NCBI GenBank assembly: GCA_963840935.1
Contig: CAWJAS010000001.1
Coordinates: forward strand, 384,875-448,874
Source: Candidatus Magasanikiibacteriota bacterium
GTDB lineage: Bacteria > Patescibacteriota > Patescibacteriia > Magasanikbacterales > GWA2-37-8
Direction of reading: 5' to 3'
Length of the DNA: 64,000 nt
The position numbers and the translations under genes are program-made. The notes under the pieces were generated by a model that was not told the origin of the DNA, did no database searches, and saw nothing but the letters and a program-made list of their open reading frames with translations. Every line of letters begins with the position of its first letter. Position 1 is the first letter of the stretch. Positions 3,001-49,857 of the stretch are shown piece by piece.

Positions 3001-3673
3001 AGAATTCAAAAATATCTTTTGACGATAGTTTTGATAGGCCTTTTTTTCTATCCTCAAAAGTAACCGGAATCTCAATGATATTGTTTTTATTTTTTTGGAC
3101 TCGAAATAACATTTCTTCTTGAAAGGCGTAACCATTGCTTTTAATTTCATCCAGGTTTATATTTTTTAATACTGATGAACGGTAGCATCTGAAACCGGAG
3201 GTCACGTCTTTTGTTTTTAATTGCAAAATCAACCTCGCACAAAACATTGCGCCACGGCTGAATAAATGTCGTTTCCAATTCCATCCGATTATTTTTCCGC
3301 CCTTTATACGCCTGGAACCAATGGCTAAATCCGCTCCTTTTTGGCAAGCGAGCAATAAGCGAGTAATATCTTCCGGCACATGAGACAAGTCCGCGTCCAT
3401 CTCAAAGATATAATCGGCATTTAGCGATAAAGCTTTTTTAAATCCTTCAATATAGGCGGAACCAAGGCCGGATTTTTTTGGTCTTTGAATCAGAAAGATT
3501 TCAGGATACGATTGTTTCGCGGTATTTATTATTTGAGCTGTATTATCCGGTGAATTATCGTCGACAAATACAATAAAAAGATTCTCAATTTTTTGGCTGA
3601 AAATTCTTTGAATTAATTCTCCGATGTTTTCTTTTTCGTTGTATGTCGGAATGACTATCGCGATTTTCTGCAT
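2975..3673 (-). CDS. GT2 glycosyltransferase, polyprenol-phosphate mannose/glucose synthase (Dpm1-like)
   Basis: IAIVIPTYNEKENI, VDDNSPDNT, EMDADLSHVPEDI: GT2 DxD signature, Dpm1-like size (232 aa). Confidence 0.85.
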   Translation of the reverse strand: MQKIAIVIPTYNEKENIGELIQRIFSQKIENLFIVFVDDNSPDNTAQIINTAKQSYPEIFLIQRPKKSGLGSAYIEGFKKALSLNADYIFEMDADLSHVPEDITRLLLACQKGADLAIGSRRIKGGKIIGWNWKRHLFSRGAMFCARLILQLKTKDVTSGFRCYRSSVLKNINLDEIKSNGYAFQEEMLFRVQKNKNNIIEIPVTFEDRKKGLSKLSSKDIFEFFKLMIKLR

Positions 3674-3707
3674 ATGTTAATAGGATAACACGAAGATTAT
3701 ATCAAAA

Positions 3708-9042: not shown

Positions 9043-9050
9043 TTAAAAAA

Positions 9051-9545
9051 TTATTTTTTTAAATTTATAATGTGATCGGTTTTTATTTTAGCCTCCTGTT
9101 CCAAAAAAAACCGATTGACGTTCGGAAGGAGAGAAAGCCATTCAAGAATCAGGCGAAATATATTTTTGATTTTTACTTTTGTCGCTTTGAGGAGTTCGCC
9201 TATCTTTGAAGCGGTTTGCTCGCCTTTTAATTTGAATTCTTGCTGAACAATCGGAGGAAGTTTTTTGTAATCTTCTTCAAGTCCTTCGGCTAGTATTTTT
9301 TCTATTTTAATGGTTATTTCATCACGGGGCATGACCGGCAAAGCCGATCTTTTTTTAATCTTTGGCAGGCTAATTTTTGTTTTTTCTTTTTGTTGTTGTT
9401 CTTTTTGGGTTTCAATATCACGGTCACTTGGCTCATTTTCTTTTGAAGATTCTAAATCAACATCTGTTTCAATATTAGCCGGTTTTAATAAATCGGCCTC
9501 AGGACCATGTTGAGAGGGTGTTTTTTCTGTGGCATTTTGGTTCAT
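9051..9545 (-). CDS. Hypothetical charged (Lys/Glu-rich) protein, likely co-transcribed with the flanking genes
   Basis: ORF only; 164 aa; 6-nt gaps to both neighbours on the same strand. Confidence 0.45.
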   Translation of the reverse strand: MNQNATEKTPSQHGPEADLLKPANIETDVDLESSKENEPSDRDIETQKEQQQKEKTKISLPKIKKRSALPVMPRDEITIKIEKILAEGLEEDYKKLPPIVQQEFKLKGEQTASKIGELLKATKVKIKNIFRLILEWLSLLPNVNRFFLEQEAKIKTDHIINLKK

Positions 9546-37231: not shown

Positions 37232-38200
37232 ATGGCCAAAAAAAGAACAAACAAAAATCAAATCGTAATTTATCAATCAAAAAATGGTGGGATTGAAATT
37301 AAAAAAGACATAAATCTGGATACTCTTTGGGCTACTCAGGTGGATATTGGTAAATTATTTGAAAAAGACCAATCGGTAATTTCGCGTCATATCAAGGGTA
37401 TTTTCAAAGATAAAGAAATAGACCAAAAAAGCAATATGCAAAAAATGCATATTGCAAATTCGGATAAACCGGTTGTTTTCTATAGTTTGGACATTATTTT
37501 AGCCGTCGGTTATCGCGCTAATTCAAAACGAGCGATTGAATTTCGCAGATGGGCAACTAAAATTTTGAAAGCGCACATCACCAAGGGCTTCACCATTAAC
37601 CCCAAAGTAATAAAAAACAATTACGCCGAATTTCAAAAAGCGATAGAAAATATTAAACAATTATTACCCGCGAGTTCAAGTGTTGACCGCGAAAGCGTTT
37701 TGGAATTGGTTTCCGCTTTTGCCGACACCTGGCTGTCTCTTGAAGCGTATGATAAAGACGATTTGATCGGCAAGGGCGAAACAAAAAAATCAGTGGACTT
37801 AACAGCCAAACAATTGCATGAAGCGCTTGTTCAATTCAAAAATGAATTGCAAAAGAATAAAACAATATCAAAAATCTTTGCGCTGGAAAAACAAAGTGGT
37901 TCCGTTGATGGCATTGTCGGTAATATCATGCAGTCATTCGGGGGTAAACAATTTTATGCGACCGTGGAAGAAAAAGCGGCTCATCTTTTGTATTTTATGG
38001 TCAAAAATCATCCTTTTACAGACGGCAACAAGCGTTGCGGAGCTTTTGCTTTCGCCTGGTTTTTGAAAAAGGCCGGTTTGCTTGAATCCCGCCAAATCAC
38101 TTCTCCGGCATTAACCGCGTTGACTATTATTGTGGCGGAAAGCGCGCCCAAACAAAAAGAAAAAATTATTCGCCTGATTCTTCAATTGTTGAAAAAATAA
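37232..38200 (+). CDS. RhuM-family N-terminal domain fused to a Fic/Doc (death-on-curing-type) domain
   Basis: N-terminus IVIYQSKNGGIEI...FYSLDIILAVGYRANSKRAIEFRRWATKIL (RhuM-like); C-terminus HPFTDGNKRCG matches the Doc/Fic core motif HxFx(D/N)GNKR. Confidence 0.75.
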   Translation: MAKKRTNKNQIVIYQSKNGGIEIKKDINLDTLWATQVDIGKLFEKDQSVISRHIKGIFKDKEIDQKSNMQKMHIANSDKPVVFYSLDIILAVGYRANSKRAIEFRRWATKILKAHITKGFTINPKVIKNNYAEFQKAIENIKQLLPASSSVDRESVLELVSAFADTWLSLEAYDKDDLIGKGETKKSVDLTAKQLHEALVQFKNELQKNKTISKIFALEKQSGSVDGIVGNIMQSFGGKQFYATVEEKAAHLLYFMVKNHPFTDGNKRCGAFAFAWFLKKAGLLESRQITSPALTALTIIVAESAPKQKEKIIRLILQLLKK

Positions 38201-38262: not shown

Positions 38263-38280
38263 CTGGGGGTCAAAAAATTT

Positions 38281-38308
38281 CAACACTTCACCCTAGGGTG
38301 AAGTGTTT
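38281..38308. repeat. 26-28-nt perfect palindrome AACACTTCACCCTAGGGTGAAGTGTT flanked by an A-run and a T-run (bidirectional terminator-like); copy 1 of 2
   Basis: Read directly; a near-identical copy lies at 43479-43508. Confidence 0.65.
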
Positions 38309-38367
38309 GTTTTGGCTTGAATTATTGATGATCTGGGGGTATGATATATTAGATTAAATATTCAGGC

Positions 38368-38997
38368 ATGTCATACATAAAACGAAAAATCGCAAAATAT
38401 GATTTTATTCATAGTATTGTAGTGACCGTTTTAGTAATGGGCGCATTACTTTTTGGCAAATATTTTTTTACTTCTGATTGGCATTCGTTTCTTTATTACA
38501 TTCAGATTTTTATTTTGGCAGTTGGCTCGGTTATTTTGATAGAATTTGTTTTGCGTCTTGTTAATAAAGCCAAAAATTATGAAAAAGGCAAAGAGGGCGA
38601 AGATTATGTTGAAAAAATATTAAAAAATATTTCGAATTTGGAATACACAAGAAATTTTAGAACAAAAAATGGTGATTTGGATTTTTTGGTGAAAAAGAAT
38701 GGAAAATATTATGGTCTAGAAGTAAAAAATTGGTCAGGCAGAATAACTTATTGCGCGGAAGATGATATTATAGAAAAAAATGGATATCCGCAGAATGTTA
38801 TAAAACAAGTAAAAACTGCTTCAAAAAAAGCGCAACAAAAATTGGCAAAAGAAAATCCCGCAATAACATTTGTGCAACCGGTAATAGTTTTTTGCGACCA
38901 TGTGGCATGTGTGGATATGCCGGGTAATATTATCAAATACGATAATATGGAGGTTTATGCGATTGGGTCGAGTCAGATAAATAATTTTTTTAGATAA
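38368..38997 (+). CDS. NERD (nuclease-related domain) protein with N-terminal TM helices
   Basis: GKEGEDYVEKILK...FRTKNGDLDFLVKKNGKYYGLEVKNW fits the NERD PD-(D/E)xK-like core; two N-terminal hydrophobic helices. Confidence 0.7.
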   Translation: MSYIKRKIAKYDFIHSIVVTVLVMGALLFGKYFFTSDWHSFLYYIQIFILAVGSVILIEFVLRLVNKAKNYEKGKEGEDYVEKILKNISNLEYTRNFRTKNGDLDFLVKKNGKYYGLEVKNWSGRITYCAEDDIIEKNGYPQNVIKQVKTASKKAQQKLAKENPAITFVQPVIVFCDHVACVDMPGNIIKYDNMEVYAIGSSQINNFFR

Positions 38998-39001
38998 AAA
39001 T

Positions 39002-42000
39002 ATGACAAATAATTGCGTATCTGAATTTGTAAAATCAGTAATAGAAAAATATAAATCAGGTCAAGCCAAAGAGCATGCTTATCGTCCGGCTTTAGAAAAG
39101 TTGTTCGGCGACATCTCTGGCCTTAATGTGATCAACGACCCCAAACGGAGCGAATACGGTGCGCCGGATTTTGTGTTTATGAAAGGAAAAGTGGCCGCCG
39201 CCTATGCCGAAGCCAAAGATATAGGCGTATCGCTTGGCGAAACAGAAAAAGGTGAACAACTTGCTCGTTATTTTGGCTATTCCAATTTAATTCTCACGGA
39301 TTGTTTAGAGTTTCGTTTTTTTCGCAACGGTCAAAAATACGAAACAGTGAAGATCGCCGAAATAAAGGACGGTGAAATAGTGGCGGACGAAAACAATTTT
39401 TCGCATTTAGAAGATACAATTAAAGAATTTATCAATGAAGCCAAAGAACCGATAAAATCCGGCGCCGTACTCGCCAAAGTCATGGCCGGCAAGGCGCGTC
39501 GCATTCGAGACAACATCAAAAAGTATCTGAACGAAAAAAACGAAGTTAAGAACGCGAGTTTATTGTCAATATACAATGCTATAAAAAATTTGTTACTCAA
39601 TGATTTGGATTATGAAAAATTTGCAGACATGTACGCGCAGACGGTTGTTTATGGTTTGTTTGTCGCTCGTTTTCACGACCAAACACCCGACACTTTCTCT
39701 CGGCAAGAAGCGCGCGATTTAGTGCCGAAATCCAATCCATTTTTACGTAAATTTTTTGACCATATCACCGGCGAGGATTTTGATGAACGCATCGGCTTTA
39801 TTGTTACGGAACTGTGTGAGGAATTCGTGCACGCCGATGTTCGCGCGATAATAAACAATTATTACAAAGTGGAAAAAGACGATAGCCGCGACCCCATTAT
39901 TCATTTCTACGAAGATTTTTTGCAGGAATATGATCCGGCGGAACGCAAGAAAATGGGTGTGTTTTATACGCCATTGCCGGTGGTACGATTTATCGTGCGC
40001 GCAATAGACGAAATTTTAAAAATCGAATTTGGCTTGAGCGGACTTGTCGATGCTATGAAAGAGGACATTGTTAAGGAGTCTCAGGGTAAAAAATACAAAG
40101 ACAAGATCCATAAAGTTCAAATTCTAGATCCAGCCACCGGCACAGGGACATTTTTGAATGAGGTCATTAGGCAAATCAAAGAATCGTTTAAGGGCCAGGA
40201 GGGTCGTTGGCAGAGTTATATCAAAGAGGACTTAATCCCGCGGCTTTATGGTTTTGAATTAATGATGGCGCCGTACACTATCGCGCATTTAAAAATCTCT
40301 TCTTTTTTGAAAGAGAACGGTGTTCATATCGGCGACGAACGGATCGGTCTGTATCTCACAAATTCTCTTGAAAAAGGCGACAAAGAACACGACACCCTTT
40401 TTGATTTTGGTTTGGCCAAAGCAATTTCTGATAAATCCAGAAAAGCTAACATTATTAAAGTTAAGGTGCCGATAATGGTAGTTTTAGGAAATCCGCCGTA
40501 TTCTGGTGAGTCTAGTAATAATTTTGAGAGTGCGAATAGATTAGTAGACAAATATAAATTTGAGCCAGGAGGCTTACTTAAATTAAAAGAAAAAAATCCA
40601 AAATGGTTAAATGATGATTATGTTAAGTTTATTGCCTTTTCAGAAAATTTAATAGATAAAAACGGTGAAGGCGTTTTAGGGTTTATTACTAATCATAGTT
40701 ATCTGGACAATACAACCTTTAGAGGAATGCGTTGGGAACTTGCACAGACTTTTGATGAAATTCATATAGTAGATCTTCACGGAAATGTTAAGAAAAAAGA
40801 AAAGCACCCAGATGGAAGTGTAGACGAAAATATTTTCGGTATACAGCAGGGTGTAGCTATTATAATTGCTGTGAAAAAGAAAAATAAAGGCGCTAAAAAG
40901 GATGCCAAGGTTTTCGTCTCTGATTTGTACGGTACGAAAAAGGTTAAATTTAATGCATTGAATAATGACGAAATAAAATATACAGAAATTAAATTAGATC
41001 AGCATCAGTACTATTTTGTAAACAAAAATTTTCAAGGAAAAGATGAATACGATAAGGGGTTTTTTGTAAATGATTTGTTTATTGTTTCTAATGTTGGCAT
41101 TGTCACTTCGGCTGATAGTATTTTGGTGGCACCAACTAAAGAGGAATTACTCAAACAATTATATAGCGCTAAAGAGGAAAATAGCGCTAAGAAAACAATT
41201 CAAAAGTTGAAAAATGAATCTATCGAAGAAAGAAAAATGCAAAAAGTAACTTATAGGCCATTTGATAATCAGTATGTTTATTATGAACCAAATGTTATTG
41301 AACGTGCCCGGTATAAAGTGATGAAAAATTTTATAGCCAAAGATAATGTTGGTCTAATATTTATGAGAGGTGGTATAGAGGTAAAATCCTCACCAATTTT
41401 CCTTTCTAAATATATTAGCAAATCCAGGAGCTGGTCGCGTCCAGGAATGCAAGGTGTCAAATCATTAGCACCACTTTATTTATATATGGAAGATGGATCA
41501 AAAATTCCAAATTTCAATAAAGAGATCGTAAAGCAAATAGAAAAAATTATTGGGCAAGCGACTCCCGAAAACATATTTGATTATATATACGCGATTTTGA
41601 ACAGTCCGAGTTATGGTGAAAAATATAAAGAGTTTTTGAAAATAGATTTTCCGCGCGTGCCGTACCCGAAAGATGAAAAACAATTTTTTGATTTAGCAAA
41701 ATTGGGCGAGGAATTGCGCCATTTGCATTTGTTTGAGAGTCCAAAAATAAATAATTTTATCACGACCTATTCAGAACCCGGCGATAATTTGGTTGAAAAG
41801 GTTATTTATAATGAAGAAAATGTGTTTATTAACAAAGCACAATTTTTTGGCGATGTTCCTAAAATCGCCTGGGAATTTTACATCGGTGGCTATCAACCTG
41901 CCCAAAAATGGCTCAAAGATCGCAAAGGTCGCAATTTATCAAACTCCGATATTGAACATTATCAAAAAATTATCGTGGCGCTTGTTGAGACAGGTAGAAT

Positions 42001-42034
42001 AATGAAAGAAATTGATAAAATTAAATATGAATAA
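39002..42034 (+). CDS. Type IIG restriction-modification enzyme (fused PD-ExK endonuclease + N6-adenine methyltransferase + specificity domain), MmeI/Eco57I-like
   Basis: N-terminal APDFVF...EAKD (PD-ExK); FYTP motif I; VLGNPPYSG motif IV (NPPY); 1010 aa single polypeptide. Confidence 0.85.
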   Translation: MTNNCVSEFVKSVIEKYKSGQAKEHAYRPALEKLFGDISGLNVINDPKRSEYGAPDFVFMKGKVAAAYAEAKDIGVSLGETEKGEQLARYFGYSNLILTDCLEFRFFRNGQKYETVKIAEIKDGEIVADENNFSHLEDTIKEFINEAKEPIKSGAVLAKVMAGKARRIRDNIKKYLNEKNEVKNASLLSIYNAIKNLLLNDLDYEKFADMYAQTVVYGLFVARFHDQTPDTFSRQEARDLVPKSNPFLRKFFDHITGEDFDERIGFIVTELCEEFVHADVRAIINNYYKVEKDDSRDPIIHFYEDFLQEYDPAERKKMGVFYTPLPVVRFIVRAIDEILKIEFGLSGLVDAMKEDIVKESQGKKYKDKIHKVQILDPATGTGTFLNEVIRQIKESFKGQEGRWQSYIKEDLIPRLYGFELMMAPYTIAHLKISSFLKENGVHIGDERIGLYLTNSLEKGDKEHDTLFDFGLAKAISDKSRKANIIKVKVPIMVVLGNPPYSGESSNNFESANRLVDKYKFEPGGLLKLKEKNPKWLNDDYVKFIAFSENLIDKNGEGVLGFITNHSYLDNTTFRGMRWELAQTFDEIHIVDLHGNVKKKEKHPDGSVDENIFGIQQGVAIIIAVKKKNKGAKKDAKVFVSDLYGTKKVKFNALNNDEIKYTEIKLDQHQYYFVNKNFQGKDEYDKGFFVNDLFIVSNVGIVTSADSILVAPTKEELLKQLYSAKEENSAKKTIQKLKNESIEERKMQKVTYRPFDNQYVYYEPNVIERARYKVMKNFIAKDNVGLIFMRGGIEVKSSPIFLSKYISKSRSWSRPGMQGVKSLAPLYLYMEDGSKIPNFNKEIVKQIEKIIGQATPENIFDYIYAILNSPSYGEKYKEFLKIDFPRVPYPKDEKQFFDLAKLGEELRHLHLFESPKINNFITTYSEPGDNLVEKVIYNEENVFINKAQFFGDVPKIAWEFYIGGYQPAQKWLKDRKGRNLSNSDIEHYQKIIVALVETGRIMKEIDKIKYE

Positions 42035-42299: not shown

Positions 42300-42653
42300 A
42301 TGCCTCTCACCCTCGTCATCCTATTCGCCATCATCATCATCCTCGCCGGATTTAAAATCTATACCCTTAAGCGCGAGGTGCTTGCCTTGAGCAGAGAGCT
42401 TGAAGATGAAAAAAAGGAATTTGCCGAAGTTGCCGTGTACAACGAAAGGCAAAAGGAAATCAAAAATCAGAACAAGGCAAAAGTGATGGCTTTGTTTGAA
42501 CACCAAAAAAAGATTGCCAACAATGATGTGCAAAAAGAATTGGGCATTTCGAGCGCCACCGCCTTCCGCTATTTGGAGGAATTGGAGAAGGAAGGTAAAT
42601 TAAAGCAGAATAATAAATTTGGGAGGTTTGTTTATTATACGAAAGCAAGTTAA
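42300..42653 (+). CDS. N-terminal TM plus C-terminal winged-helix DNA-binding protein
   Basis: Hydrophobic N-terminus; KKIANNDVQKELGISSATAFRYLEELEKEGKL is an HTH. Confidence 0.5.
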   Translation: MPLTLVILFAIIIILAGFKIYTLKREVLALSRELEDEKKEFAEVAVYNERQKEIKNQNKAKVMALFEHQKKIANNDVQKELGISSATAFRYLEELEKEGKLKQNNKFGRFVYYTKAS

Positions 42654-42686: not shown

Positions 42687-43301
42687 ATGCTTGTTTTTAT
42701 TGACGACTCTGGCGATCCGGGCTTTAAATTAAACAAAGGTTCCACCAGATATTTTCTAATCGCTCTCGTAATTTTTGAAGATGAATTAGAGGCGGAAAAA
42801 ACAGCAGTCGCGATTAAGGAGCTTAAAAGGGGATTAAAATTTCCTGATGATATGGAATTTAAATTTTTTAAATCAAGCAAAGATGTCAGAATGAAATTTT
42901 TATCGACAGTAAAAAAGTTTAATTTTTATTATAGATGCTTGGCGATAGATAAGATGGTAATTAAAAGCGATGAATTAAAAAATAACAAAAGCTCATTTTA
43001 CAGTTATGCTATTAAAACCGTATTAAAGCATAGTAATGCCATTAATAACGCCAAGGTCAAAATTGATGGAAGCGGAGACAGGGTTTTCCGAAAAAATTTT
43101 TTGGCATATTTAAAAAAACAATTAAACAGTGGAGATAAAAAAATAATTAAAAATTGTAAATTGGTCGATTCAAAAGGCAATCAACTTATCCAATTGGCTG
43201 ATATGATTGCTGGTAGTGTTCGGCGGTCTTTTGAAGCGAATGATTATATTTATAGGAATCTTATAAAAAATAAGGAGAATGATGTTTGGAATTTTAAATA
43301 A
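42687..43301 (+). CDS. DUF3800 family protein
   Basis: N-terminal MLVFIDDSGDPG and C-terminal QLADMIAG are the hallmark DUF3800 segments. Confidence 0.7.
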   Translation: MLVFIDDSGDPGFKLNKGSTRYFLIALVIFEDELEAEKTAVAIKELKRGLKFPDDMEFKFFKSSKDVRMKFLSTVKKFNFYYRCLAIDKMVIKSDELKNNKSSFYSYAIKTVLKHSNAINNAKVKIDGSGDRVFRKNFLAYLKKQLNSGDKKIIKNCKLVDSKGNQLIQLADMIAGSVRRSFEANDYIYRNLIKNKENDVWNFK

Positions 43302-43478
43302 AAAACAACCCCTTACGGGGTGTTTCCAACCATGCATTCTATACTGGTTGTCCCAGTCACGCCACCGTCCGGTGACAGTTCGATATGCAGGTTTAGGTAT
43401 TTCCATTATAGCATAAAACTCGTAAAATTGGAATAGGTTTGTGTGTATAACTATATATTTATTTAATTTTAGCCAAAA

Positions 43479-43508
43479 ATCAACACTTCACCCTAGGCTG
43501 AAGTGTTG
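43479..43508. repeat. Palindrome CAACACTTCACCCTAGGCTGAAGTGTTG, copy 2 of the 38281-38308 element (one central mismatch)
   Basis: Read directly; A-run upstream. Confidence 0.6.
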
Positions 43509-43582
43509 AAATTAGTTAAATTTACATATAATTTTCGAGAGGAATGTGCAAAAAATGCACAATCCAAAAAATCAAACGTAAA

Positions 43583-43800
43583 AGAAATAAAAAAGTCCTG
43601 GCTGGACATTGCACAAGTCGTTTTTGACACGCGCCCTCTCGTCCAGCCAGAACAAAGGAATATATCATAAAACGAGCTATTTGTCAATATGAAATAAAAA
43701 AGTCCTGGCTGGGACAGTATTTATATCGTGTCAAACAGAACTACCTTCGTCCAGCCAGGACAGAGAAGTATATGATAATATAATTATTTTGTCAATATTA
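43583..43800 (+). repeat. Two tandem ~110-nt structured units, each a 13-bp inverted repeat (GTCCTGGCTGG(G)AC ... GTCCAGCCAG(A/G)AC) enclosing a ~33-nt divergent loop, followed by the conserved tail TATTTTGTCAATAT(G/T)AAATAAAA; candidate small RNAs
   Basis: Read directly; unit 1 at 43583-43690, unit 2 at 43692-43800; immediately followed by a strong terminator. Confidence 0.55.
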
Positions 43801-43804
43801 AATA

Positions 43805-43836
43805 AAACCCCGCAATCGCGGGGCTTCATTTTTTTT
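43805..43836 (+). terminator. Rho-independent terminator directly after the tandem structured repeats
   Basis: CCCCGC-AATC-GCGGGG then CTTCATTTTTTTT; no protein gene upstream on this strand. Confidence 0.6.
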
Positions 43837-43893
43837 AAGCTTGTCCAAAGGCAATAAAAGTGGGATAATATATAAAATTAGCTATAAAAATCT

Positions 43894-45345
43894 ATGCTAA
43901 CAAAATCCAATTTTAATCTATATATCAAATGCCCGATTTGGTTGTGGTTGAAAATTCATCGACCGGATTTGTTGCCGGCAGATTCGCTGGATACATTGCG
44001 CCGGTTTGCGGAGGGCAGGGAGGTGGATGTGCTGTCGCGCCAAGTTTATCCGGGTGGAGTTGAAGCAAAAGGTTTCAATAAAGAGGGTTTCAAAAACACA
44101 AAAGAGCTTTTGAGTGGCACGGCCAAAGTGATTTACCAGCCCACGATTATGACCGAGTTTTTGACTTGCCGGGCGGATATTTTGACACGCGATGGCGAGA
44201 AGTGGGATTTGCGCGAAGTAAAAATGACAACTAAAGTAAAACCGGAGCATATTTATGATGTTGGTTTTCAGCGGATTTGTTTTGAAGAGGCGGGCGTAAA
44301 AATCGGCCGAACTTTTTTGGTCCATTTGAATAATGAGTATGTTCGACATGGCGCGATTGAACCGGAAAAATTATTTATCAGTGAAGATATTACCGACGAA
44401 GTTTTGGAAAAAATGGATGAAATAAAAGAAGAAATAAACAAGGCGCTTGCGATGTTTGAATGGCGGGAAGCGCCGGACAAGCGTTTGATTGAATTGTGTG
44501 CCACTCCCAAAAATTGCGAGTATATCAAATATTATTGTGAGGGTGTGGGCGGTGTGGCGGAAATGGCCGAGCAAATTGACCCCAAAAAATTATTGATTTT
44601 GTTGAGGCGGGGGATTGTGGCGCCGGAAAATTTGTCTGATGATTTGCTTGATCGGATCGGGTACGCGCCGGAAGAGCCGTTCACAAAAATAAACGCGCCG
44701 GTCATTCGGCGGGAATTGGAAAAGCTGGAATATCCGTTGTATTTTTTTGATTATGAAACTTATGGTGTGGCCATCCCTTTGTTTGATGGCACGCGTCCGT
44801 ATCAGGCCATCCCTTTCCAATATTCTTTGCATGTGCAAGACAAGCCCGATGGTGAAATTAAACACTTGGAATTTTTGGCCACAAAGTTTGAGAATCCGGT
44901 GCCGGAATTGCTCGCGCAATTGAAGCGAGACATTGGGCCGGTTGGCAGTGTGATTGTGTGGTTCAAAAATTTTGAAAAGACGCGCAATGAAGAAATGGCA
45001 AAAATGATGCCCGAGTACGCTGATTTTTTGGATGATGTGAATGAACGGATTTTTGATTTGTATGATATCTTTAAAATAAAGAATGAGATGTATGCTGACA
45101 GCGAGTTTCAAGGTAGCGCTTCGCTGAAGTCGGTTTTGCCTGTTCTTTGCCCCGAACTTTCATACAAATCTTTGGCCATTCAAGAAGGCGGGACGGCTTC
45201 GGCCAGTTGGCCGGTTTTGACCAGTGAAAAAACGCCGGAAGCCGAGCGAGAGAAATTAAAAAATGACATGTTGGCGTATTGCGAGCGCGATACCGAAGCG
45301 ATGGTTGGCATTCTTGAGAAGTTGAAAAGGGAGATTGAAAATTAA
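43894..45345 (+). CDS. DUF2779 family protein (predicted RecB/Cas4-like PD-(D/E)xK nuclease with C-terminal Cys cluster and exonuclease-like domain)
   Basis: N-terminus MLTKSNFNLYIKCPIWLWLK typical of DUF2779; D..E.K triad (RADILTRDGEKWDLREVK); CEYIKYYCEG. Confidence 0.65.
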   Translation: MLTKSNFNLYIKCPIWLWLKIHRPDLLPADSLDTLRRFAEGREVDVLSRQVYPGGVEAKGFNKEGFKNTKELLSGTAKVIYQPTIMTEFLTCRADILTRDGEKWDLREVKMTTKVKPEHIYDVGFQRICFEEAGVKIGRTFLVHLNNEYVRHGAIEPEKLFISEDITDEVLEKMDEIKEEINKALAMFEWREAPDKRLIELCATPKNCEYIKYYCEGVGGVAEMAEQIDPKKLLILLRRGIVAPENLSDDLLDRIGYAPEEPFTKINAPVIRRELEKLEYPLYFFDYETYGVAIPLFDGTRPYQAIPFQYSLHVQDKPDGEIKHLEFLATKFENPVPELLAQLKRDIGPVGSVIVWFKNFEKTRNEEMAKMMPEYADFLDDVNERIFDLYDIFKIKNEMYADSEFQGSASLKSVLPVLCPELSYKSLAIQEGGTASASWPVLTSEKTPEAEREKLKNDMLAYCERDTEAMVGILEKLKREIEN

Positions 45346-45420
45346 TGCAGTTGTGGTCTTTATGTTTCATGAATAGGTCTGGCACTGTGCAAAGTTAAGA
45401 AAATATTAAATGTTATTTTC

Positions 45421-47907
45421 ATGGATTTAATATATTTATTGATCGTAATTGCCGTAGTATTGGGTTTATTTATAGTACGCCTTGTTTATATTCACCAAAG
45501 AGATAATGAACTATTGTTAATTTTAAATGATTATAGAGACGATTTCGAACAAGCACTAAAGGAATTCGATGAATTATTATCGAATTCTTTTTATTTATCA
45601 GACATGCAATATCAATTATGGCGTGGCACGCACAATCATTTATACGAGTTAATTCCTACAAAATTTGAAAAAATAAAAAATAAGAATCCCCTGATTTTGA
45701 AAGTACGAACCTTTTTAGATTGTTATTTGCGAGGTCGAGAATTATTTATTGACCCGCATAATACTAATTTTGTTCAGAATGAAATCCCAATCATTAAGCA
45801 TGTATTGAATGAAAAGAAAATTCCTTGTAATAACGACCAATTAAACGCGATTGCATCTGATGAAAATAATACCTTGCTCGTTGCGGGTGCCGGTACCGGA
45901 AAAACCACAACGATAATTGGCAAACTGGCTTATTTAATTGAACGGCTGGATGTTCAGCCGAAAGATATTTTGCTATTATCCTTTACTGGTCGCGCCGTTA
46001 ATGAGTTATCAGAAAGAGTCATAAAAAAATTCGGTAATAAAAATTTGGAAGTCCGCACTTTCCATAGCTTCGGCTTGTCTGTAATAGGGCAGGTTCGCGG
46101 TAAAAAGCCTGAGATGGCTTTTGACGGCGACAGTTTAAAACGCAGAATTTTTTTGAATAACAAATTTAATAATTTATTATCGGACAAATCATACATATGG
46201 AATGTTTTGCAATATTTTGCTTATTATTTTAAACCGATTAATGCCGAGCCTGTATTTGAAAACCTTGATGAATATTATCAAAAGAATTTAGTAAAAGAAT
46301 ATATTTCTTTAAAAAATGAAAAAATGAAAAGCCAGCAGGAGGTGATGATTGCCAATTATTTGTTTATAAACGGCATTAATTATATATATGAAGCGCCGTA
46401 CAAGCATGAAACGGCGACAAAATTTTTTCGCCAATATAAGCCGGATTTTTATTTGCCTGATTTTGATATTTATCTAGAACATTTTGGCATCAATAAAAAT
46501 GGCATGGTTCATTTTACTCGCAACGAAGAACAGAATTATAAAGAATCTATTAAATATCGTGCTGATATGGAATGGAAACGCAACCTGCATAAGCAGTATC
46601 AAACTAAATTAATTGAAACCTATAGTTATGATTTTTTTGAAAATGATTGGGAAAAAATTTTAAAGGAGAAATTATTATCGGAAAAAGTTTTGATAAAAAG
46701 CATGAGTACAGAGGAAATAATTTCGATTATCAAAAAGGAAAATTATGATATTAAGAAAATAGCGGAATTGTTTGCGACATTTTTGGATTTAAGCAAATCA
46801 AGGTGTTACACGCCGGAAATATTGAGAGAAAAAATTATAGAAAGGCAGAGCCCGAGAGAGATGGCTTTTTTGAAAATCTTCGTACCTCTATATGAGGAGT
46901 ACGAAAATTATATTAAGGAATCCGGCACTGTTGATTTTCACGACATGCTTCTTGAAGCGGCGAATTATATTTCTGATGGTCGTTATCCGATTAATTTTAA
47001 GTATGTTATTATCGATGAATTTCAGGATTTTTCAGAGAGTAAATCAAAATTAATCAAGGCAATTTGCGCGCAAAATCCGTTTGTAAAATTATTTTGCGTG
47101 GGAGATGATTGGCAATCTATTTTCCGTTTCGCTGGTTCAGATGTTTCTTTAATGTCCGAATTTCAAGATAATTATGGATTTACAAGAAAAAATCAGCTTG
47201 CTGTCACAAATCGATTTAATAATCAATTGGCAATTATTTCTAATCAGTTTATTTTGAAAAACCCCAGTCAAATTCATAAAGAAGTTTGTTCCGGTACTAT
47301 TGTAAATTTTGATCCTATTAAAATAATACATGAAAAAAATTATAATGATACCATTTATTTTTTGCGTGAGATATTGAGTGATTTAAATAAACAAGCAAAG
47401 TGCGCGAATAAGAAAGTTTCTGTTTTACTTTTAGGGCGTTATAGACATAACGCACCTGAAAATTGGCAAAAATTCAATAACGAGTTTGGTAATTTATCAG
47501 TCGAATTTCTTACTATACACGCCGCTAAAGGTTCTGAGGCGGATTATGTTATAATACTTGATGTAAATTCCGGTAGGCTTGGTTTTCCCTCGGAGATATC
47601 CGATGACCCTATTTTGGATATTGTTTTAAGCAAGCGTGAAGGATATCCGAATGCTGAGGAAAGGCGCTTGATGTATGTTGCCATGACCCGAGCGAAGCAA
47701 AAGGTTTTTATTATGACAAAAGATGGCGCTGAATCAATATTTGTGATGGAATTGGAGCGGTCGAATAAGAAAAATAAGGAAAAAATAATTTGTCCGGAAT
47801 GCGGTGGTAATATGGTTCGTCGCAAAGGTCCTTATGGGGTATTCCTTAGTTGTAAGAATTTTCCAAAATGTAAATACAAAATAAATATTAGGCGCTATAA
47901 TGTATGA
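45421..47907 (+). CDS. UvrD/Rep-family SF1 helicase with N-terminal TM, inserted nuclease-like domain and C-terminal topoisomerase-type C4 zinc ribbon (helicase IV-like)
   Basis: LVAGAGTGKTTTIIGKLAYLI Walker A; VIIDEFQDF Walker B; HAAKGSEADYVII; LMYVAMTRAKQ; CPECGGNMVRRKG...CKNFPKCKY. Confidence 0.8.
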   Translation: MDLIYLLIVIAVVLGLFIVRLVYIHQRDNELLLILNDYRDDFEQALKEFDELLSNSFYLSDMQYQLWRGTHNHLYELIPTKFEKIKNKNPLILKVRTFLDCYLRGRELFIDPHNTNFVQNEIPIIKHVLNEKKIPCNNDQLNAIASDENNTLLVAGAGTGKTTTIIGKLAYLIERLDVQPKDILLLSFTGRAVNELSERVIKKFGNKNLEVRTFHSFGLSVIGQVRGKKPEMAFDGDSLKRRIFLNNKFNNLLSDKSYIWNVLQYFAYYFKPINAEPVFENLDEYYQKNLVKEYISLKNEKMKSQQEVMIANYLFINGINYIYEAPYKHETATKFFRQYKPDFYLPDFDIYLEHFGINKNGMVHFTRNEEQNYKESIKYRADMEWKRNLHKQYQTKLIETYSYDFFENDWEKILKEKLLSEKVLIKSMSTEEIISIIKKENYDIKKIAELFATFLDLSKSRCYTPEILREKIIERQSPREMAFLKIFVPLYEEYENYIKESGTVDFHDMLLEAANYISDGRYPINFKYVIIDEFQDFSESKSKLIKAICAQNPFVKLFCVGDDWQSIFRFAGSDVSLMSEFQDNYGFTRKNQLAVTNRFNNQLAIISNQFILKNPSQIHKEVCSGTIVNFDPIKIIHEKNYNDTIYFLREILSDLNKQAKCANKKVSVLLLGRYRHNAPENWQKFNNEFGNLSVEFLTIHAAKGSEADYVIILDVNSGRLGFPSEISDDPILDIVLSKREGYPNAEERRLMYVAMTRAKQKVFIMTKDGAESIFVMELERSNKKNKEKIICPECGGNMVRRKGPYGVFLSCKNFPKCKYKINIRRYNV

Positions 47908-48299
47908 TTAAAATCCCACCATCCGAACTCCGCGTCACATTTGCTCGGTCATCGGGTGCGGGCGGGCAGAATGTGAATAAGACATCGACCAAAGCGACTG
48001 TGCATTGGCCGGTGGGGCGTTCGCGGGTTTTGTCTGACGATGAAAAAGCGAGGGTGCGGGTGAAATTGACGAGCCGGATTAATTCAAACGACGAGGTGGT
48101 GGTAATGTCGGAAGAAGAGAGAACGCAACCGCAAAATCGCGCCTTGGCCGTTGCTCGGTTGCAGGCGCTCGTTGTCCGCGCTTTGCATGTGCCAAAAAAG
48201 CGCAAAGCGACCCGACCGACCTTGGCTTCCAAATTACGCCGATTGGAATCCAAAACACGTCGGTCGCGGGTGAAGGCAGGAAGACGTCAAACCGAATAA
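47904..48299 (+). CDS. arfB: Alternative ribosome-rescue factor ArfB (peptidyl-tRNA hydrolase, YaeJ family)
   Basis: GAGGQNVNKTSTKA GGQ motif; basic C-terminal tail; ~131 aa; ATG overlaps helicase stop (ATGTATGA). Confidence 0.85.
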   Translation: MIKIPPSELRVTFARSSGAGGQNVNKTSTKATVHWPVGRSRVLSDDEKARVRVKLTSRINSNDEVVVMSEEERTQPQNRALAVARLQALVVRALHVPKKRKATRPTLASKLRRLESKTRRSRVKAGRRQTE

Positions 48300-48316
48300 T
48301 TTTTTAATTTAGGAAT

Positions 48317-48409
48317 ATGATTATTATAATTGGCGTGGTGTTGCTCATTGTAGTCGTCATTATTTTGGCCATTGTTCATGAGCACGACCAGAATCCAACA
48401 CAAAAATAA
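48317..48409 (+). CDS. Possible 30-aa hydrophobic micro-protein (single TM)
   Basis: MIIIIGVVLLIVVVIILAIVHEHDQNPTQK with AGGAAT 6 nt upstream; below ORF-track cutoff; speculative. Confidence 0.2.
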   Translation: MIIIIGVVLLIVVVIILAIVHEHDQNPTQK

Positions 48410-48412
48410 ATT

Positions 48413-48658
48413 ATGTATTATTTGTATATTGTTGAATGCGCCGATAAAACGTTATATACTGGAGTTACGGTTGATGTGGAAAGGCGCGTGCGCGAACATA
48501 ATAATTTGAAGCTTGGCGCAAAATACACACGCGCTCGACGGCCGGTGAAATTGGTTTACGTGAAAAAGTTTCGTAATCGCTCGCTTGCTTCCAAAGCCGA
48601 GTGCAAAATAAAAAATTTATCGCGCGAAGAGAAGTTGAAGATGATTAAAAATATTTAA
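48413..48658 (+). CDS. Mini GIY-YIG nuclease, UPF0213/YhbQ-like (copy 2 of 3; free-standing)
   Basis: YYLYIVECADKTLYTGVTVDVERRVREHN is the GIY...YTG...R...EH core; 81 aa. Confidence 0.8.
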   Translation: MYYLYIVECADKTLYTGVTVDVERRVREHNNLKLGAKYTRARRPVKLVYVKKFRNRSLASKAECKIKNLSREEKLKMIKNI

Positions 48659-48674
48659 TTTAATTTATTTATCT

Positions 48675-49205
48675 ATGACCAAAAAAATCATATTCGCCCT
48701 TGTTGGCGTGGTGGTAGTGGCGGTCGTGTCATTTTTTTTGATGCGATTTGATAAAGCCAAGGAGCCGGCCGATGAACAGGCAGTGCAAACCACCGAAGAG
48801 AATGGCGCGACTCCGGAGGTTGCGGACGAGGAACAAACTTCGCCGGTTGGTTTGGCTAATCCGGCGAGTGTGAACTGCGCAGAAAAAGGCGGGAATTTAT
48901 CTATACAAAAAAGACCCGACGGTGGAGAATATGGAGTATGTTATTTTGAAGACAACCGACAGTGCGAAGAATGGGCGTTATTCCGTGGCGAATGTCCGGT
49001 GGGCGGAGTAAAAGTCACCGGATACGAAGATGAAGCTCAGGTATATTGCGCCATTACCGGCGGAGAGGTGCAAGGTGTTGGCACGGAAATACCGATGTGC
49101 AAACGCATAGATGGCACCCTTTGCAACGCGCAAGCGAATTTTGAAGGGGCTTGTCCCGATCCGCACGACCCGAATCCGAGCGCCGGGAATGTTGAAGCGC
49201 CGTAA
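48675..49205 (+). CDS. Membrane-anchored protein with two DUF333 (putative hemolysin-like Cys-containing) domains
   Basis: N-terminal TM; duplicated NCAEKGG...GVCYFEDNRQCEEWALFRGEC and YCAITGGEVQG...CKRIDGTLCNAQANFEGAC. Confidence 0.65.
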   Translation: MTKKIIFALVGVVVVAVVSFFLMRFDKAKEPADEQAVQTTEENGATPEVADEEQTSPVGLANPASVNCAEKGGNLSIQKRPDGGEYGVCYFEDNRQCEEWALFRGECPVGGVKVTGYEDEAQVYCAITGGEVQGVGTEIPMCKRIDGTLCNAQANFEGACPDPHDPNPSAGNVEAP

Positions 49206-49215
49206 AATTTTGGTT

Positions 49216-49698
49216 ATGCGACAATTGTTCGACATTTCCAAATCCGAACAAAAAATTTTCAAAAACCTGCGGACACCCATCAAAATCCAGGATTTTTTGG
49301 ACACAATTCCGATGAACCACGAGAAAAACGGTGAAACATATATGTCGCCCCGATTCTCACTCAAAGCGCGCAAAATGCATTGTTTGGAGGGTGCGCTTGT
49401 GGCAGCCGTGGCTCTTTGGTATCATGGCAAAAAACCGTTACTTCTTGACCTCAAAACAAAGGGCGACGATGATCATGTGGTTGTGCTTTTTCGGCAAAAC
49501 GGATATTGGGGGGCTATTAGCAAAACCAACCACGCGGTTCTGCGTTTCCGCGACCCGGTGCACAAAACAATTCGCGAGTTGGTCTTGTCGTATTTTCATG
49601 AATATTTCAAGAACAGCGATGGTAAAAAAGTGCTCGTTAGTTATTCGGCAAAGCCGTTTGATTTGCGTCAGATTCAAAACCGATTGGGTAACATCTGA
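49216..49698 (+). CDS. Hypothetical protein (160 aa)
   Basis: Start moved to ATG 49216 (the track ORF's earlier part overlaps the previous gene); no recognisable motifs. Confidence 0.45.
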   Translation: MRQLFDISKSEQKIFKNLRTPIKIQDFLDTIPMNHEKNGETYMSPRFSLKARKMHCLEGALVAAVALWYHGKKPLLLDLKTKGDDDHVVVLFRQNGYWGAISKTNHAVLRFRDPVHKTIRELVLSYFHEYFKNSDGKKVLVSYSAKPFDLRQIQNRLGNI

Positions 49699-49857
49699 TA
49701 AAAATTTGCACTATATTGCCGAAGCGATTGACAGGGCTCTGCACAAGCGGATTTATCCCAAAAAGAATCAAAAATATTTGCGTCTGGCCGACAAAATGGA
49801 ACGCCGAGCCGGCCGGATTATTGAGTGGAATAAATCCGATAAAAGAACATAATTAAT

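What the first reader, a model, noticed from the sequence alone, without database searches (positions are those of the whole stretch)
43583..43836. Two tandem ~110-nt structured repeat units with their own terminator: candidate small RNAs or invertible elements
Each unit begins AAAAAAGTCCTGGCTGG(G)AC and, after ~33 nt, has the reverse-complement arm GTCCAGCCAG(A/G)AC (a 13-bp stem). It then has the conserved tail ...TATTTTGTCAATAT(G/T)AAATAAAA. The loop sequences differ, but each contains GTGTCAAA or its complement (loop 1 has TTTTTGACAC, loop 2 has CGTGTCAAAC). This is what would be seen if the segment between the inverted repeats were inverted in one copy relative to the other. A strong rho-independent terminator follows the second unit even though no protein gene precedes it on that strand. 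The array sits between DUF3800 and the DUF2779 nuclease.
Basis: seen in the sequence. Interest (0 to 1): 0.55.

Follow-up and report, generated by a model that had tools for sequence, protein, structure and literature searches.

The report
Two tandem hairpin small-RNA genes (orphan)
The repeat is real, but it reads best on the opposite strand, as two back-to-back mini-genes in a Patescibacteria (CPR) genome, each with a strong promoter, a ~60-nt hairpin and its own terminator; they sit beside a known DUF3800-IX RNA, have no relatives elsewhere, and their function is unknown.

Summary
Two ~108-nt units lie at 43583-43807. Each has a 13-14 bp stem around a 33-nt loop that differs between units, and a GC-rich terminator follows at 43808-43836.

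The units read best on the minus strand. Each has a near-consensus sigma-70 promoter (TTGACA-N17-TATACT / TATATT, 11 of 12). The stem starts 6 nt after the -10 box and is followed by UUUUUUAUUU. So each unit carries its own terminator, and the 43808-43836 terminator lies upstream of them. Promoter boxes, stems and U-tracts are 46/49 identical between units; spacers and loops are 30/60 (p=3e-7).

The hairpin units belong to no Rfam family. They are absent from 81 DUF3800 loci, 5 DUF2779 loci, 185,579 species genomes, viral contigs, phages and plasmids. The only other copy is in one contig that is 98% identical over this block. Covariation therefore cannot be tested.

Inversion is not supported: the segment is 33 bp, no recombinase lies within 10 kb, and orientation is the same in both genomes.

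Leads only: the two loops are mutually complementary (p~0.005), and loop 1 matches 12 nt inside the adjacent DUF2779 gene (p 0.006-0.33).

Best reading: an orphan pair of paralogous hairpin sRNAs.

The parts
43767..43795 (-). Promoter of unit 2: TTGACA-N17-TATACT, with an AT-rich upstream region
   Evidence: It matches 11 of 12 consensus positions. It is one of only 11 sites at 11/12 or better on both strands of the 64-kb window, and most of the others lie upstream of ORFs or tRNAs.
43692..43761 (-). Predicted hairpin RNA 2 (~65-70 nt). 5' stem 43761-43749, 33-nt loop 43748-43716, 3' stem 43715-43702 with one bulged C, U-tract UUUUUUAUUU 43701-43692.
   Evidence: Minimum free energy is -26.5 kcal/mol, z -5.1. 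The stem starts 6 nt after the -10 box.
43659..43687 (-). Promoter of unit 1: TTGACA-N17-TATATT, with TG before the -10 box
   Evidence: It matches 11 of 12 consensus positions.
43585..43653 (-). Predicted hairpin RNA 1 (~65-70 nt). 14-bp stem including a U.G and a G.U pair, 31-33-nt loop with an inner hairpin (GCGCG.GUC/GAC.UGUGC), then the U-tract.
   Evidence: Minimum free energy is -35.1 kcal/mol, z -6.6. The U.G pair is a C.A mismatch on the + strand, where the fold reaches only -25.1 kcal/mol.
43808..43836 (.). Bidirectional GC-rich intrinsic terminator (A-tract, CCCCGCAATCGCGGGG, T8). It lies upstream of the units in their direction of transcription.
43324..43393 (-). DUF3800-IX RNA (Rfam RF02968). 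It has its own extended -10 promoter (TGC-TATAAT, 43405-43413) and a terminator at 43321-43308. Context only; not part of the repeat.
   Evidence: It scores 46.3 bits against a gathering score of 36.8. The same arrangement was found in 33 of 33 related DUF3800 loci scanned.
42687..43301 (+). DUF3800 protein gene (RNase H-like fold), convergent with DUF3800-IX
   Evidence: Pfam PF12686, E=1e-15. PADLOC PDC-M04A. Homologues are 60-70% identical across Patescibacteria.
43480..43509 (-). Terminator-like palindromic hairpin between unit 1 and DUF3800-IX. A paralogous copy lies at window 38276-38324.
43545..43559 (.). Operator-like palindrome TGTGCA-N-TGCACA. Related TGTGCA/TGCACA motifs occupy the same position in L015.
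   Evidence: read directly from the sequence.
43894..45345 (+). DUF2779 / Cas4-like nuclease gene, with promoter TTGTCC-N17-GATAAT at 43841-43869. It contains a 12-nt site, TTTTGACACGCG (44180-44191), complementary to the loop of RNA 1.
   Evidence: Pfam. 12-mer match, with p=0.0055 for this gene alone, 0.026 for three neighbouring genes and 0.33 window-wide.

Best explanation
The two units are paralogous, independently transcribed small-RNA genes on the minus strand of a Patescibacteria (CPR) chromosome. Each has a near-consensus sigma-70 promoter. Transcription should start at or within 1-2 nt of the first stem base. The product is a ~65-70-nt RNA whose 5' and 3' ends pair in a 13-14 bp GC-rich stem around a 33-nt loop. 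The stem plus UUUUUUAUUU also acts as the unit's own intrinsic terminator.

The stem, promoter boxes and U-tract are held constant between the copies, and the loops have diverged. The loop is therefore the likely specificity-bearing part, and the stem is the scaffold, stability element or protein handle.

The mechanism I consider most likely is antisense pairing through the exposed loop. RNA 1's loop can pair with 12 nt of the adjacent DUF2779 nuclease mRNA and with the loop of RNA 2, which carries the same word as that mRNA and so could act as competitor or partner.

What is shown: repeat anatomy, promoter and terminator matches, fold stability, strand asymmetry, the selective conservation pattern, and the absence of homologues. 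What is inferred: transcription itself, the RNA ends and the antisense mechanism.

The confidence of 0.55 is for 'minus-strand hairpin sRNA genes'. The specific antisense circuit with DUF2779 is about 0.15.
For: 1. Promoters. TTGACA-N17-TATACT and TTGACA-N17-TATATT match 11 of 12 positions. Only 11 such sites exist on both strands of the 64-kb window, and most of the others lie upstream of ORFs or tRNAs, so the consensus is meaningful in this organism.
2. Hairpin placement. In both units the hairpin starts 6 nt after the -10 box and ends in U6AU3.
3. Fold stability. -35.1 and -26.5 kcal/mol, z -6.6 and -5.1.
4. Strand. Pair 3 of unit 1 (U.G) and the closing G14.U46 pair of both units are wobble pairs on the minus strand but C.A / A.C mismatches on the plus strand. 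The plus-strand fold of unit 1 is 10 kcal/mol weaker. No T-run follows the hairpins on the + strand.
5. Selective conservation between the paralogues. The -35 box, -10 box, both stem arms and the U-tract are 46/49 identical; spacer, discriminator, loop and upstream edge are 30/60 (Fisher p=3e-7). With only the promoter boxes and U-tract, which are defined independently of the repeat, the figures are 21/22 vs 30/60, p=9e-5.
6. Retention. Both units are nearly unchanged in L096, where the neighbouring DUF3800 lacks residues 1-46 and its RNA falls below the Rfam threshold.
7. Inner-stem change. One of the two loop differences in L096 turns a G.U pair of RNA 1's inner stem into G-C.
8. Loop complementarity. 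Loop 1 pairs with loop 2 over 16 nt (13 Watson-Crick pairs and 1 G.U, -15.6 kcal/mol). Loop 1 also pairs with DUF2779 codons D-I-L-T-R-D over 12 nt exactly.
Against: - There are no expression data.
- There is no covariation: 14 pairs, of which 13 are invariant and 1 changes on one side. No diverged homologue exists to supply any.
- Model R1 finds nothing in 81 DUF3800 loci, in the DUF2779 locus L097 or elsewhere in the window.
- The stem pattern gives only chance hits in 185,579 species genomes. Nothing was found in viral contigs, phages or plasmids.
- A 33-nt loop is far larger than in typical intrinsic terminators, so the terminator scan did not call these hairpins.
- The 12-mer match to DUF2779 lies 287 nt inside the ORF, not at the ribosome-binding site. 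It is not exceptional by duplex energy across the window, and its p-value is post hoc (0.33 window-wide).
- The loops show no notable pairing with DUF3800-IX, the tRNAs or the start regions of neighbouring genes.
- L096 looks like an error-prone long-read assembly with fragmented genes, so its small differences may be errors.
Confidence: 0.55

Rival explanations
1. Decaying or neutral leftovers. A promoter-terminator junction was duplicated once, for example at the edge of the 6.3-kb segment inserted here relative to L015. It persists in one lineage without any RNA function.
For: The units are confined to one lineage: the window and the 98%-identical block in L096. They sit exactly at a synteny break. 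L015 goes from DUF3800-IX straight to the HAD gene, whose orthologue here is at 49858. There is no covariation.
Against: Neutral positions between the copies are near saturation (30/60 identical), while promoter boxes, stems and U-tracts are 46/49 identical. That pattern is hard to get without selection or very targeted gene conversion. CPR genomes are compact: most DUF3800 loci leave only 160-200 nt after the gene.
Confidence: 0.17
2. A DNA-level element. The 13-bp inverted repeats are binding sites for a dimeric protein, or they form cruciforms or ssDNA hairpins that serve as recombination, replication or nuclease-loading sites for the adjacent DUF2779 nuclease and UvrD/helicase IV-like pair.
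For: The arms are perfect or near-perfect 13-bp inverted repeats. The units travel with the 5' part of DUF2779 in the 98% block shared with L096. An HTH gene (42300-42653) and a nuclease-helicase pair are adjacent.
Against: This does not explain the consensus promoter placed 6 nt before each stem, the U-tract after it, or the G.U versus A.C strand asymmetry. Five other DUF2779 loci (L097-L101) have nothing comparable upstream. There the gene follows another gene by about 20 nt or less, or a divergent gene.
Confidence: 0.1
3. Plus-strand structured RNAs ending at the strong terminator 43808-43836. They could be the 3' UTR or a read-through transcript of DUF3800.
For: The + strand also folds (-25.1 and -25.9 kcal/mol, z -3.6 and -4.3). 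The + strand terminator is strong. The DUF3800 terminator has a weak T-run in the + direction, so read-through is plausible.
Against: There is no good + strand promoter upstream of the units; the best candidates match 9-10 of 12 and are not conserved between units. The + strand stems carry C.A / A.C mismatches where the minus strand has wobble pairs. The conserved 'tail' has no + strand function, yet on the minus strand it is a perfect -35 box.
Confidence: 0.08
4. Invertible or phase-variable segments: the 33-bp loops flip between the inverted repeats.
For: The central 9 nt (16 nt at 81%) of loop 1 is the reverse complement of loop 2, shuffle p=0.003-0.008. From my own knowledge, short hairpin-loop inversions by template switching are known in chloroplast non-coding DNA, so one ancient flip is conceivable.
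Against: From my own knowledge, 33 bp is far below the size of known recombinase-driven invertible segments. No recombinase was detected by Pfam or PADLOC in the larger ORFs examined between 31.7 and 51.1 kb. Both loops have the same orientation in L096. Only the centre is inverted, and the loop edges and a UGUnnnAnACGA register align directly, 14/33, p=0.02.
Confidence: 0.03

Closest known systems
Tandem paralogous trans-acting sRNA genes (e.g. OmrA/OmrB, PrrF1/PrrF2, Qrr1-5, AbcR1/2, LhrC1-5). This comparison rests on my own knowledge.
   Same: They are adjacent duplicated genes. Each has its own sigma-70 promoter and intrinsic terminator. The scaffold ends are conserved and an internal segment has diverged.
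   Different: Here almost the whole RNA is a single hairpin whose 5' end is paired. The variable part is a closed 33-nt loop rather than a single-stranded 5' seed. The host is a CPR bacterium. No targets, chaperone or homologues are known.
Loop-loop ('kissing') antisense RNAs of plasmids and toxin-antitoxin loci (CopA/CopT, RNAI/RNAII, Sok/hok). This comparison rests on my own knowledge.
   Same: They are short stem-loop RNAs made from strong promoters. Their specificity lies in the loop, and they end in a U-tract.
   Different: Those are cis-encoded opposite their target and have 5-8-nt loops. Here no gene lies antisense to the units, and the candidate target site is 430-590 nt away on the other strand inside DUF2779.
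DUF3800-IX RNA (Rfam RF02968) and the other DUF3800-associated motifs (Weinberg et al. 2017, PMC5737381)
   Same: A true DUF3800-IX RNA lies 190 nt away on the same strand, also with its own promoter and terminator. The function of these motifs is unknown, and DUF3800 has an RNase H-like fold (PMC10910872, PMC7736814).
   Different: The hairpin units match no DUF3800 motif. They are absent from 81 other DUF3800 loci, including all 33 Rfam-scanned loci shown to carry DUF3800-IX. They are not part of that module.
Type III toxin-antitoxin RNA repeats (ToxI-like). This comparison rests on my own knowledge.
   Same: They are tandem structured RNA repeats beside a nuclease-type gene in a defence-rich neighbourhood.
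   Different: ToxI-type repeats are ~36 nt, share one promoter, and sit directly upstream of the toxin gene on the same strand. These units are 108 nt, each has its own promoter and terminator, and they lie on the strand opposite both neighbouring genes.
Invertible promoter switches and integron attC sites. This comparison rests on my own knowledge.
   Same: Inverted repeats flank a variable segment, and one arm has a bulged base.
   Different: There is no recombinase or integrase. The segment is 33 bp. The cores do not fit RYYYAAC/GTTRRRY. There is no cassette ORF.

Membership tests
Any Rfam 15 family, including DUF3800-I..XI, Y RNA, Rsm/Csr and ribozymes | Covariance-model score at or above the family's gathering score | tested here: not met
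   The gathering scan of the whole window finds only 6 tRNAs and DUF3800-IX at 43324-43393. The permissive scan of 43350-43950 gives only sub-threshold hits over the units, best 28.6 bits against a gathering score of 47.
DUF3800-IX RNA (RF02968): the neighbouring element, not the repeat | Score of at least 36.8 bits and a position next to a DUF3800 gene | tested here: met
   46.3 bits at 43324-43393 (-), 22 nt after the DUF3800 stop. The same layout occurs in 33 of 33 related DUF3800 loci scanned.
Independent sigma-70 transcription unit | -35 and -10 hexamers at 16-18 nt spacing, placed just upstream of the RNA | tested here: met
   Both units match 11 of 12 positions at 17-nt spacing, and only 11 such sites occur in 128 kb of sequence.
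Independent sigma-70 transcription unit | An actual transcript with the predicted 5' and 3' ends | not testable with these tools
   No expression data are available.
Intrinsic (Rho-independent) terminator | GC-rich stem immediately followed by a U-run | tested here: met
   A 13-14 bp stem is followed by UUUUUUAUUU on the minus strand.
Intrinsic (Rho-independent) terminator | Short loop (3-8 nt in the scanning definition) | tested here: not met
   The loops are 31-33 nt, so the scan did not call these hairpins. RNA 1's loop forms an inner hairpin; RNA 2's loop is largely open.
Structured RNA supported by covariation | Compensatory base changes across homologues | tested here: inconclusive
   Of 14 pairs, 13 are invariant and 1 changes on one side (C-G to U.G). 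No diverged homologues were found.
Recombinase-driven invertible DNA switch | A site-specific recombinase encoded nearby | tested here: not met
   Pfam and PADLOC scans of the larger ORFs examined between 31.7 and 51.1 kb detect no recombinase, integrase or invertase; five of these ORFs match no family at all.
Recombinase-driven invertible DNA switch | Both orientations of the segment present in populations or relatives | tested here: inconclusive
   The only other genome (L096) has both loops in the same orientation as the window. No read-level data were available.
Integron attC site | R''/R' cores RYYYAAC ... GTTRRRY, and an integron integrase with cassettes | tested here: not met
   The arms are GT(C/T)CTGGCTGGAC / GTCC(C)AGCCAGGAC, which do not fit the cores. 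There is no integrase or cassette ORF.
Type III TA antitoxin RNA array | Short tandem repeats, co-oriented with and directly upstream of the toxin gene, under one promoter | tested here: not met
   The units are 108 nt with individual promoters and terminators. They lie on the strand opposite both neighbouring genes.
Type I TA module | A small toxin ORF overlapping or adjacent to the antisense RNA, conserved between repeats | tested here: not met
   Only unit 1 is overlapped by ORFs (43493-43687, 43503-43670, 43522-43668), and these run through promoters or terminators. Unit 2 has no equivalent.
CRISPR array | Direct repeats separated by spacers, plus cas genes | tested here: not met
   The repeats flanking each 33-nt variable segment are inverted, not direct, and each unit has its own promoter. 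The only Cas-like signal is a weak Cas4 domain in DUF2779.

The most novel reading that the evidence does not exclude
The conserved 13-bp stem is a protein handle and the 33-nt loops are exchangeable specificity segments. The pair would form a small regulatory or guide circuit for the adjacent nuclease-helicase (DUF2779 with the UvrD/helicase IV-like gene) or for the RNase H-like DUF3800. RNA 1 would pair with the catalytic-motif codons of the DUF2779 mRNA or DNA. RNA 2 carries the same word and would act as its sponge, or would address the opposite strand. This would be a previously undescribed hairpin-loop RNA control or guide system in CPR bacteria.
Probability: 0.07. Interest if true: 0.7.

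Novelty: new member of a known kind. Interest (0 to 1): 0.33.

Why it matters
Small RNAs of Patescibacteria (CPR) are almost unstudied, and their genomes (~0.8 Mb here) leave little non-coding space. This 590-nt gap appears to hold three strong-promoter RNA genes in a defence-rich island (type IIG restriction-modification enzyme, Fic, DUF3800, nuclease-helicase).

If the hairpin RNAs are expressed, they offer a simple and testable case: two paralogues with a fixed scaffold and different loops, plus a concrete candidate target 12 nt long in the neighbouring nuclease gene.

The result also corrects the annotation. The region contains a known but functionally unexplained DUF3800-IX RNA, which is invariably paired with DUF3800 in CPR. 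The new units are not part of that module.

If they are not expressed, this is just a lineage-specific duplication.

Tried and rejected
- **Rfam.** A gathering scan of the window and a permissive scan of the locus gave no family for the units.
- **Stem pattern in 185,579 species genomes.** It produced 14 loci, all chance hits in high-GC genomes with unrelated flanks.
- **Covariance model R1 built from the two units.** It found nothing in 81 DUF3800 loci, in L097 or elsewhere in the window with filters off.
- **Other collections.** The viral-contig pattern scan, phage BLAST and plasmid BLAST found nothing. The single 43-nt plasmid hit lies over the terminator, not the units.
- **Exact-protein look-ups of the window's DUF3800 and DUF2779.** These gave no usable contig.
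- **A generic hairpin + T-run scan of all loci.** It was too noisy in AT-rich DNA to be informative.
- **Long gaps after DUF3800-IX in other loci.** They are explained by tRNA genes or unrelated repeats, not by analogous hairpin units.
- **Loop pairing with DUF3800-IX, six tRNAs and the start regions of four neighbouring genes.** None was better than shuffles.
- **Small-ORF / type I toxin idea.** No ORF is conserved between the units.
- **attC, CRISPR, ToxI and invertible-switch readings.** Each has defining features that are not met (see the membership table).
- **Motif resemblances recalled from memory.** These were CsrA GGA motifs, Y RNA, Chi-like GCGCGTG in loop 1, and CCWGG in the stems. 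I treated them as untested leads only. The only support for any of them was a weak RsmY hit of 16.6 bits.
- **TRF.** It reports no tandem array because the two copies are too diverged overall.

Full report
**1. What is in the sequence.**

- Two units lie 107-108 nt apart between 43583 and 43807.
- Each contains 13-nt inverted arms (GTCCTGGCTGGAC / GTCCAGCCAG(A/G)AC) around 33 nt that differ between units. Unit 2 has one bulged base.
- Each ends in TTGTCAATAT(G/T)AAATAAAA.
- A GC-rich hairpin with a T8 run follows at 43808-43836.
- The stem word occurs four times in the window, all in the four stem arms. Shuffles expect 0.21.

**2. The units read best on the minus strand.**

On the minus strand the conserved 'tail' becomes ATATTGACAAA, a perfect -35 box. 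It is followed 17 nt later by TATACT (unit 2, 43795-43767) or TATATT (unit 1, 43687-43659), which is 11 of 12 consensus positions in both units.

Only 11 sites this good exist on both strands of the whole window, and most of the others lie upstream of ORFs or a tRNA cluster. The sigma-70 consensus therefore appears to apply in this organism.

The first stem base (G) is the 6th nt after the -10 box in both units. The 3' arm is followed directly by UUUUUUAUUU. Each unit is thus promoter + hairpin + U-tract, predicting RNAs of ~65-70 nt at 43761-43692 and 43653-43585.

These RNAs fold at -26.5 and -35.1 kcal/mol, z -5.1 and -6.6.

Two observations favour the minus strand:
- The U.G pair in unit 1 and the closing G.U pair in both units are C.A / A.C mismatches on the + strand.
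- Unit 1 folds 10 kcal/mol less well on the + strand.

The strong terminator at 43808-43836 therefore lies upstream of the units. It is bidirectional. It most plausibly stops + strand read-through from DUF3800, whose own terminator has a weak T-run in that direction. It could also insulate the DUF2779 promoter (TTGTCC-N17-GATAAT, 43841-43869).

**3. Selective conservation between the two copies.**

| Segment | Identical / total |
|---|---|
| -35 box | 6/6 |
| -10 box | 5/6 |
| Stem arms | 12/13 and 13/14 |
| U-tract | 10/10 |
| Promoter spacer | 9/17 |
| Discriminator | 3/5 |
| Loop | 14/33 |

Functional elements together are 46/49 identical. The rest, including the upstream edge (4/5), is 30/60 (Fisher p=3e-7). 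Using only the promoter boxes and U-tract, which are defined independently of the repeat, gives 21/22 vs 30/60, p=9e-5.

This is what an old duplication looks like when the transcription signals and the stem are under purifying selection and the loop is not. It is the strongest argument that the units are functional genes rather than debris.

**4. Context.**

The organism is a member of the Patescibacteria (CPR).
- DUF3800 homologues at 60-70% identity come from Kuenen-, Taylor-, Azam-, Portnoy- and Giovannonibacteria.
- The best named DUF2779 hit is Magasanikbacteria, at 75%.

Genes around the locus:

| Coordinates | Strand | Gene |
|---|---|---|
| 37232-38200 | + | Fic/RhuM |
| 38368-38997 | + | NERD |
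| 39002-42034 | + | Type IIG/ISP restriction-modification enzyme |
| 42300-42653 | + | Winged-HTH protein |
| 42687-43301 | + | DUF3800 |
| 43894-45345 | + | DUF2779 / Cas4-like nuclease |
| 45421-47907 | + | UvrD/helicase IV-like with zinc ribbon |
| 47904-48299 | + | ArfB |

It starts 22 nt after the DUF3800 stop and has its own extended -10 promoter and terminator.

All 33 related DUF3800 loci that I scanned carry this RNA in the same convergent position. Its function is unknown (PMC5737381). DUF3800 has an RNase H-like fold (PMC10910872, PMC7736814).

**5. The units belong to neither neighbouring module.**

- Model R1 finds no unit in 81 DUF3800 loci.
- In most of those loci the next ORF starts 160-200 nt after DUF3800, which leaves room only for DUF3800-IX. 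Longer gaps hold tRNAs or unrelated repeats.
- The closest DUF3800 relative (L015, 88% identity) goes from DUF3800-IX straight to a HAD gene, whose orthologue here is at 49858. So 43.5-49.8 kb, with the units at its left edge, is extra in this genome.
- Five DUF2779 loci (60-74% identity) have nothing comparable upstream.
- Nothing was found in species-representative genomes, viral contigs, phages or plasmids.

The only other occurrence is contig L096. Its positions 6935-9243 match window 42824-45141 at 98.4%, while the flanks are 74% identical or unrelated. Both units are present there in the same order and orientation.

In L096, DUF3800 lacks residues 1-46 and the DUF3800-IX RNA drops below the Rfam threshold, yet the units are nearly intact. 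That assembly has fragmented genes, so I give its small differences little weight.

Consequently covariation cannot be assessed: of 14 pairs, 13 are invariant and one changes on one side.

**6. The loops.**

The reverse-complement match between the loops (CGTGTCAAA / TTTGACACG, 16 nt at 81%) beats shuffles, p=0.003-0.008. In-register direct identity is also above chance (14/33, p=0.02), and the loop edges align directly.

Active inversion is unlikely, for four reasons:
- The segment is only 33 bp.
- Pfam and PADLOC detected no recombinase in the larger ORFs examined between 31.7 and 51.1 kb.
- Orientation is identical in L096.
- Only the loop centre is inverted.

The same observation can be read another way: the two RNAs can pair loop-to-loop (-15.6 kcal/mol).

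Loop 1 is also exactly complementary to 12 nt (TTTTGACACGCG, 44180-44191) in the adjacent DUF2779 gene, at the D-I-L-T-R-D codons of its PD-(D/E)xK motif. RNA 2 carries the same-sense word. The chance estimate is 0.0055 for that gene alone, 0.026 for the three neighbouring genes and 0.33 for the whole window. The duplex energy is not exceptional window-wide. This is a lead, not a finding.

The loops show no notable pairing with DUF3800-IX, the tRNAs or the start regions of nearby genes.

**7. Verdict.**

The 'small RNA' interpretation is supported in a corrected form: minus strand, each unit with its own promoter and terminator. The 'invertible element' interpretation is not supported.

The best explanation is an orphan pair of paralogous hairpin sRNA genes whose loops carry specificity. 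Their mechanism is probably antisense pairing, possibly involving the DUF2779 mRNA and each other.

Nothing ties them to a known family, and nothing beyond sequence anatomy shows that they are expressed. They are a new, lineage-restricted example of an ordinary kind of element (tandem sRNA genes), of modest interest. The small-probability upside is that the fixed stem and variable loops form a guide-like or regulatory module for the neighbouring nucleases.

Noticed in passing
window 43324-43393 (-), with promoter ~43405-43433 and terminator 43321-43308: A bona fide Rfam DUF3800-IX RNA (46.3 bits, gathering score 36.8) lies 22 nt after the DUF3800 stop codon and is convergent with that gene. 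The same gene-RNA pair in the same geometry is present in 33 of 33 related Patescibacteria DUF3800 loci scanned, so it is a strict two-part module of unknown function.
   Followed up: partly
window 43480-43509 and 38276-38324: A palindromic terminator-like hairpin (TCAACACTTCA..CCTAGG..TGAAGTGTTGA plus a T-run) occurs twice in the window, at ~88-91% identity. One copy lies between unit 1 and DUF3800-IX, the other between the Fic and NERD genes. It looks like a small repeated terminator or REP-like element.
   Followed up: partly
window 43545-43559; L015 ~3640-3690: An operator-like palindrome (GATTGTGCA-TTTTT-TGCACATTC) sits just upstream of the DUF3800-IX side of the gap. The 88%-related locus L015 has TGTGCA/TGCACA motifs at the equivalent place. 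This may be a binding site for an HTH regulator, such as the 117-aa winged-HTH protein at 42300-42653.
   Followed up: no
L096 6935-9243 vs window 42824-45141: A 2.3-kb block is 98.4% identical between two otherwise diverged genomes. It comprises the 3' three-quarters of DUF3800, DUF3800-IX, both hairpin units and the 5' 85% of DUF2779. The flanks are 74% identical or unrelated. In L096, DUF3800 lacks residues 1-46 and its genes are fragmented. This is either recent recombination or transfer of the block, or a poor long-read assembly.
   Followed up: partly
window 43510-49857 vs L015: Relative to the closest DUF3800 locus (L015), about 6.3 kb is inserted between DUF3800-IX and the HAD gene. 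The insert holds the hairpin units, DUF2779, the UvrD/helicase IV-like gene, ArfB, a DUF333 gene and other ORFs. The upstream side also differs: a type IIG restriction-modification enzyme and an HTH gene here, hydrolase and acetyltransferase genes there. The DUF3800 module therefore sits at a variable, defence-island-like spot.
   Followed up: partly
L039, L040, L042, L060 (downstream of DUF3800-IX); L037 2961-3031 and 4656-4724: In several related loci, tRNA genes lie directly upstream of DUF3800-IX on the same strand. One locus (L037) carries two DUF3800-IX copies 1.7 kb apart.
   Followed up: no
L070 5140-5330: Next to a DUF3800-IX RNA there is a different GC-rich tandem repeat (two ~97-nt units, 82% identical over 39 nt) with internal inverted repeats. 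It is unrelated in sequence to the units studied here.
   Followed up: no
window 44155-44191 (+): The DUF2779 coding sequence contains GTTTTTGAC (44157-44165) and TTTTGACACGCG (44180-44191). Both are sub-strings of the + strand complement of RNA 1's loop (GTCGTTTTTGACACGCGCC). The 74%-identical homologue L097 encodes the same peptide motif (RADILTR) without this nucleotide word.
   Followed up: partly
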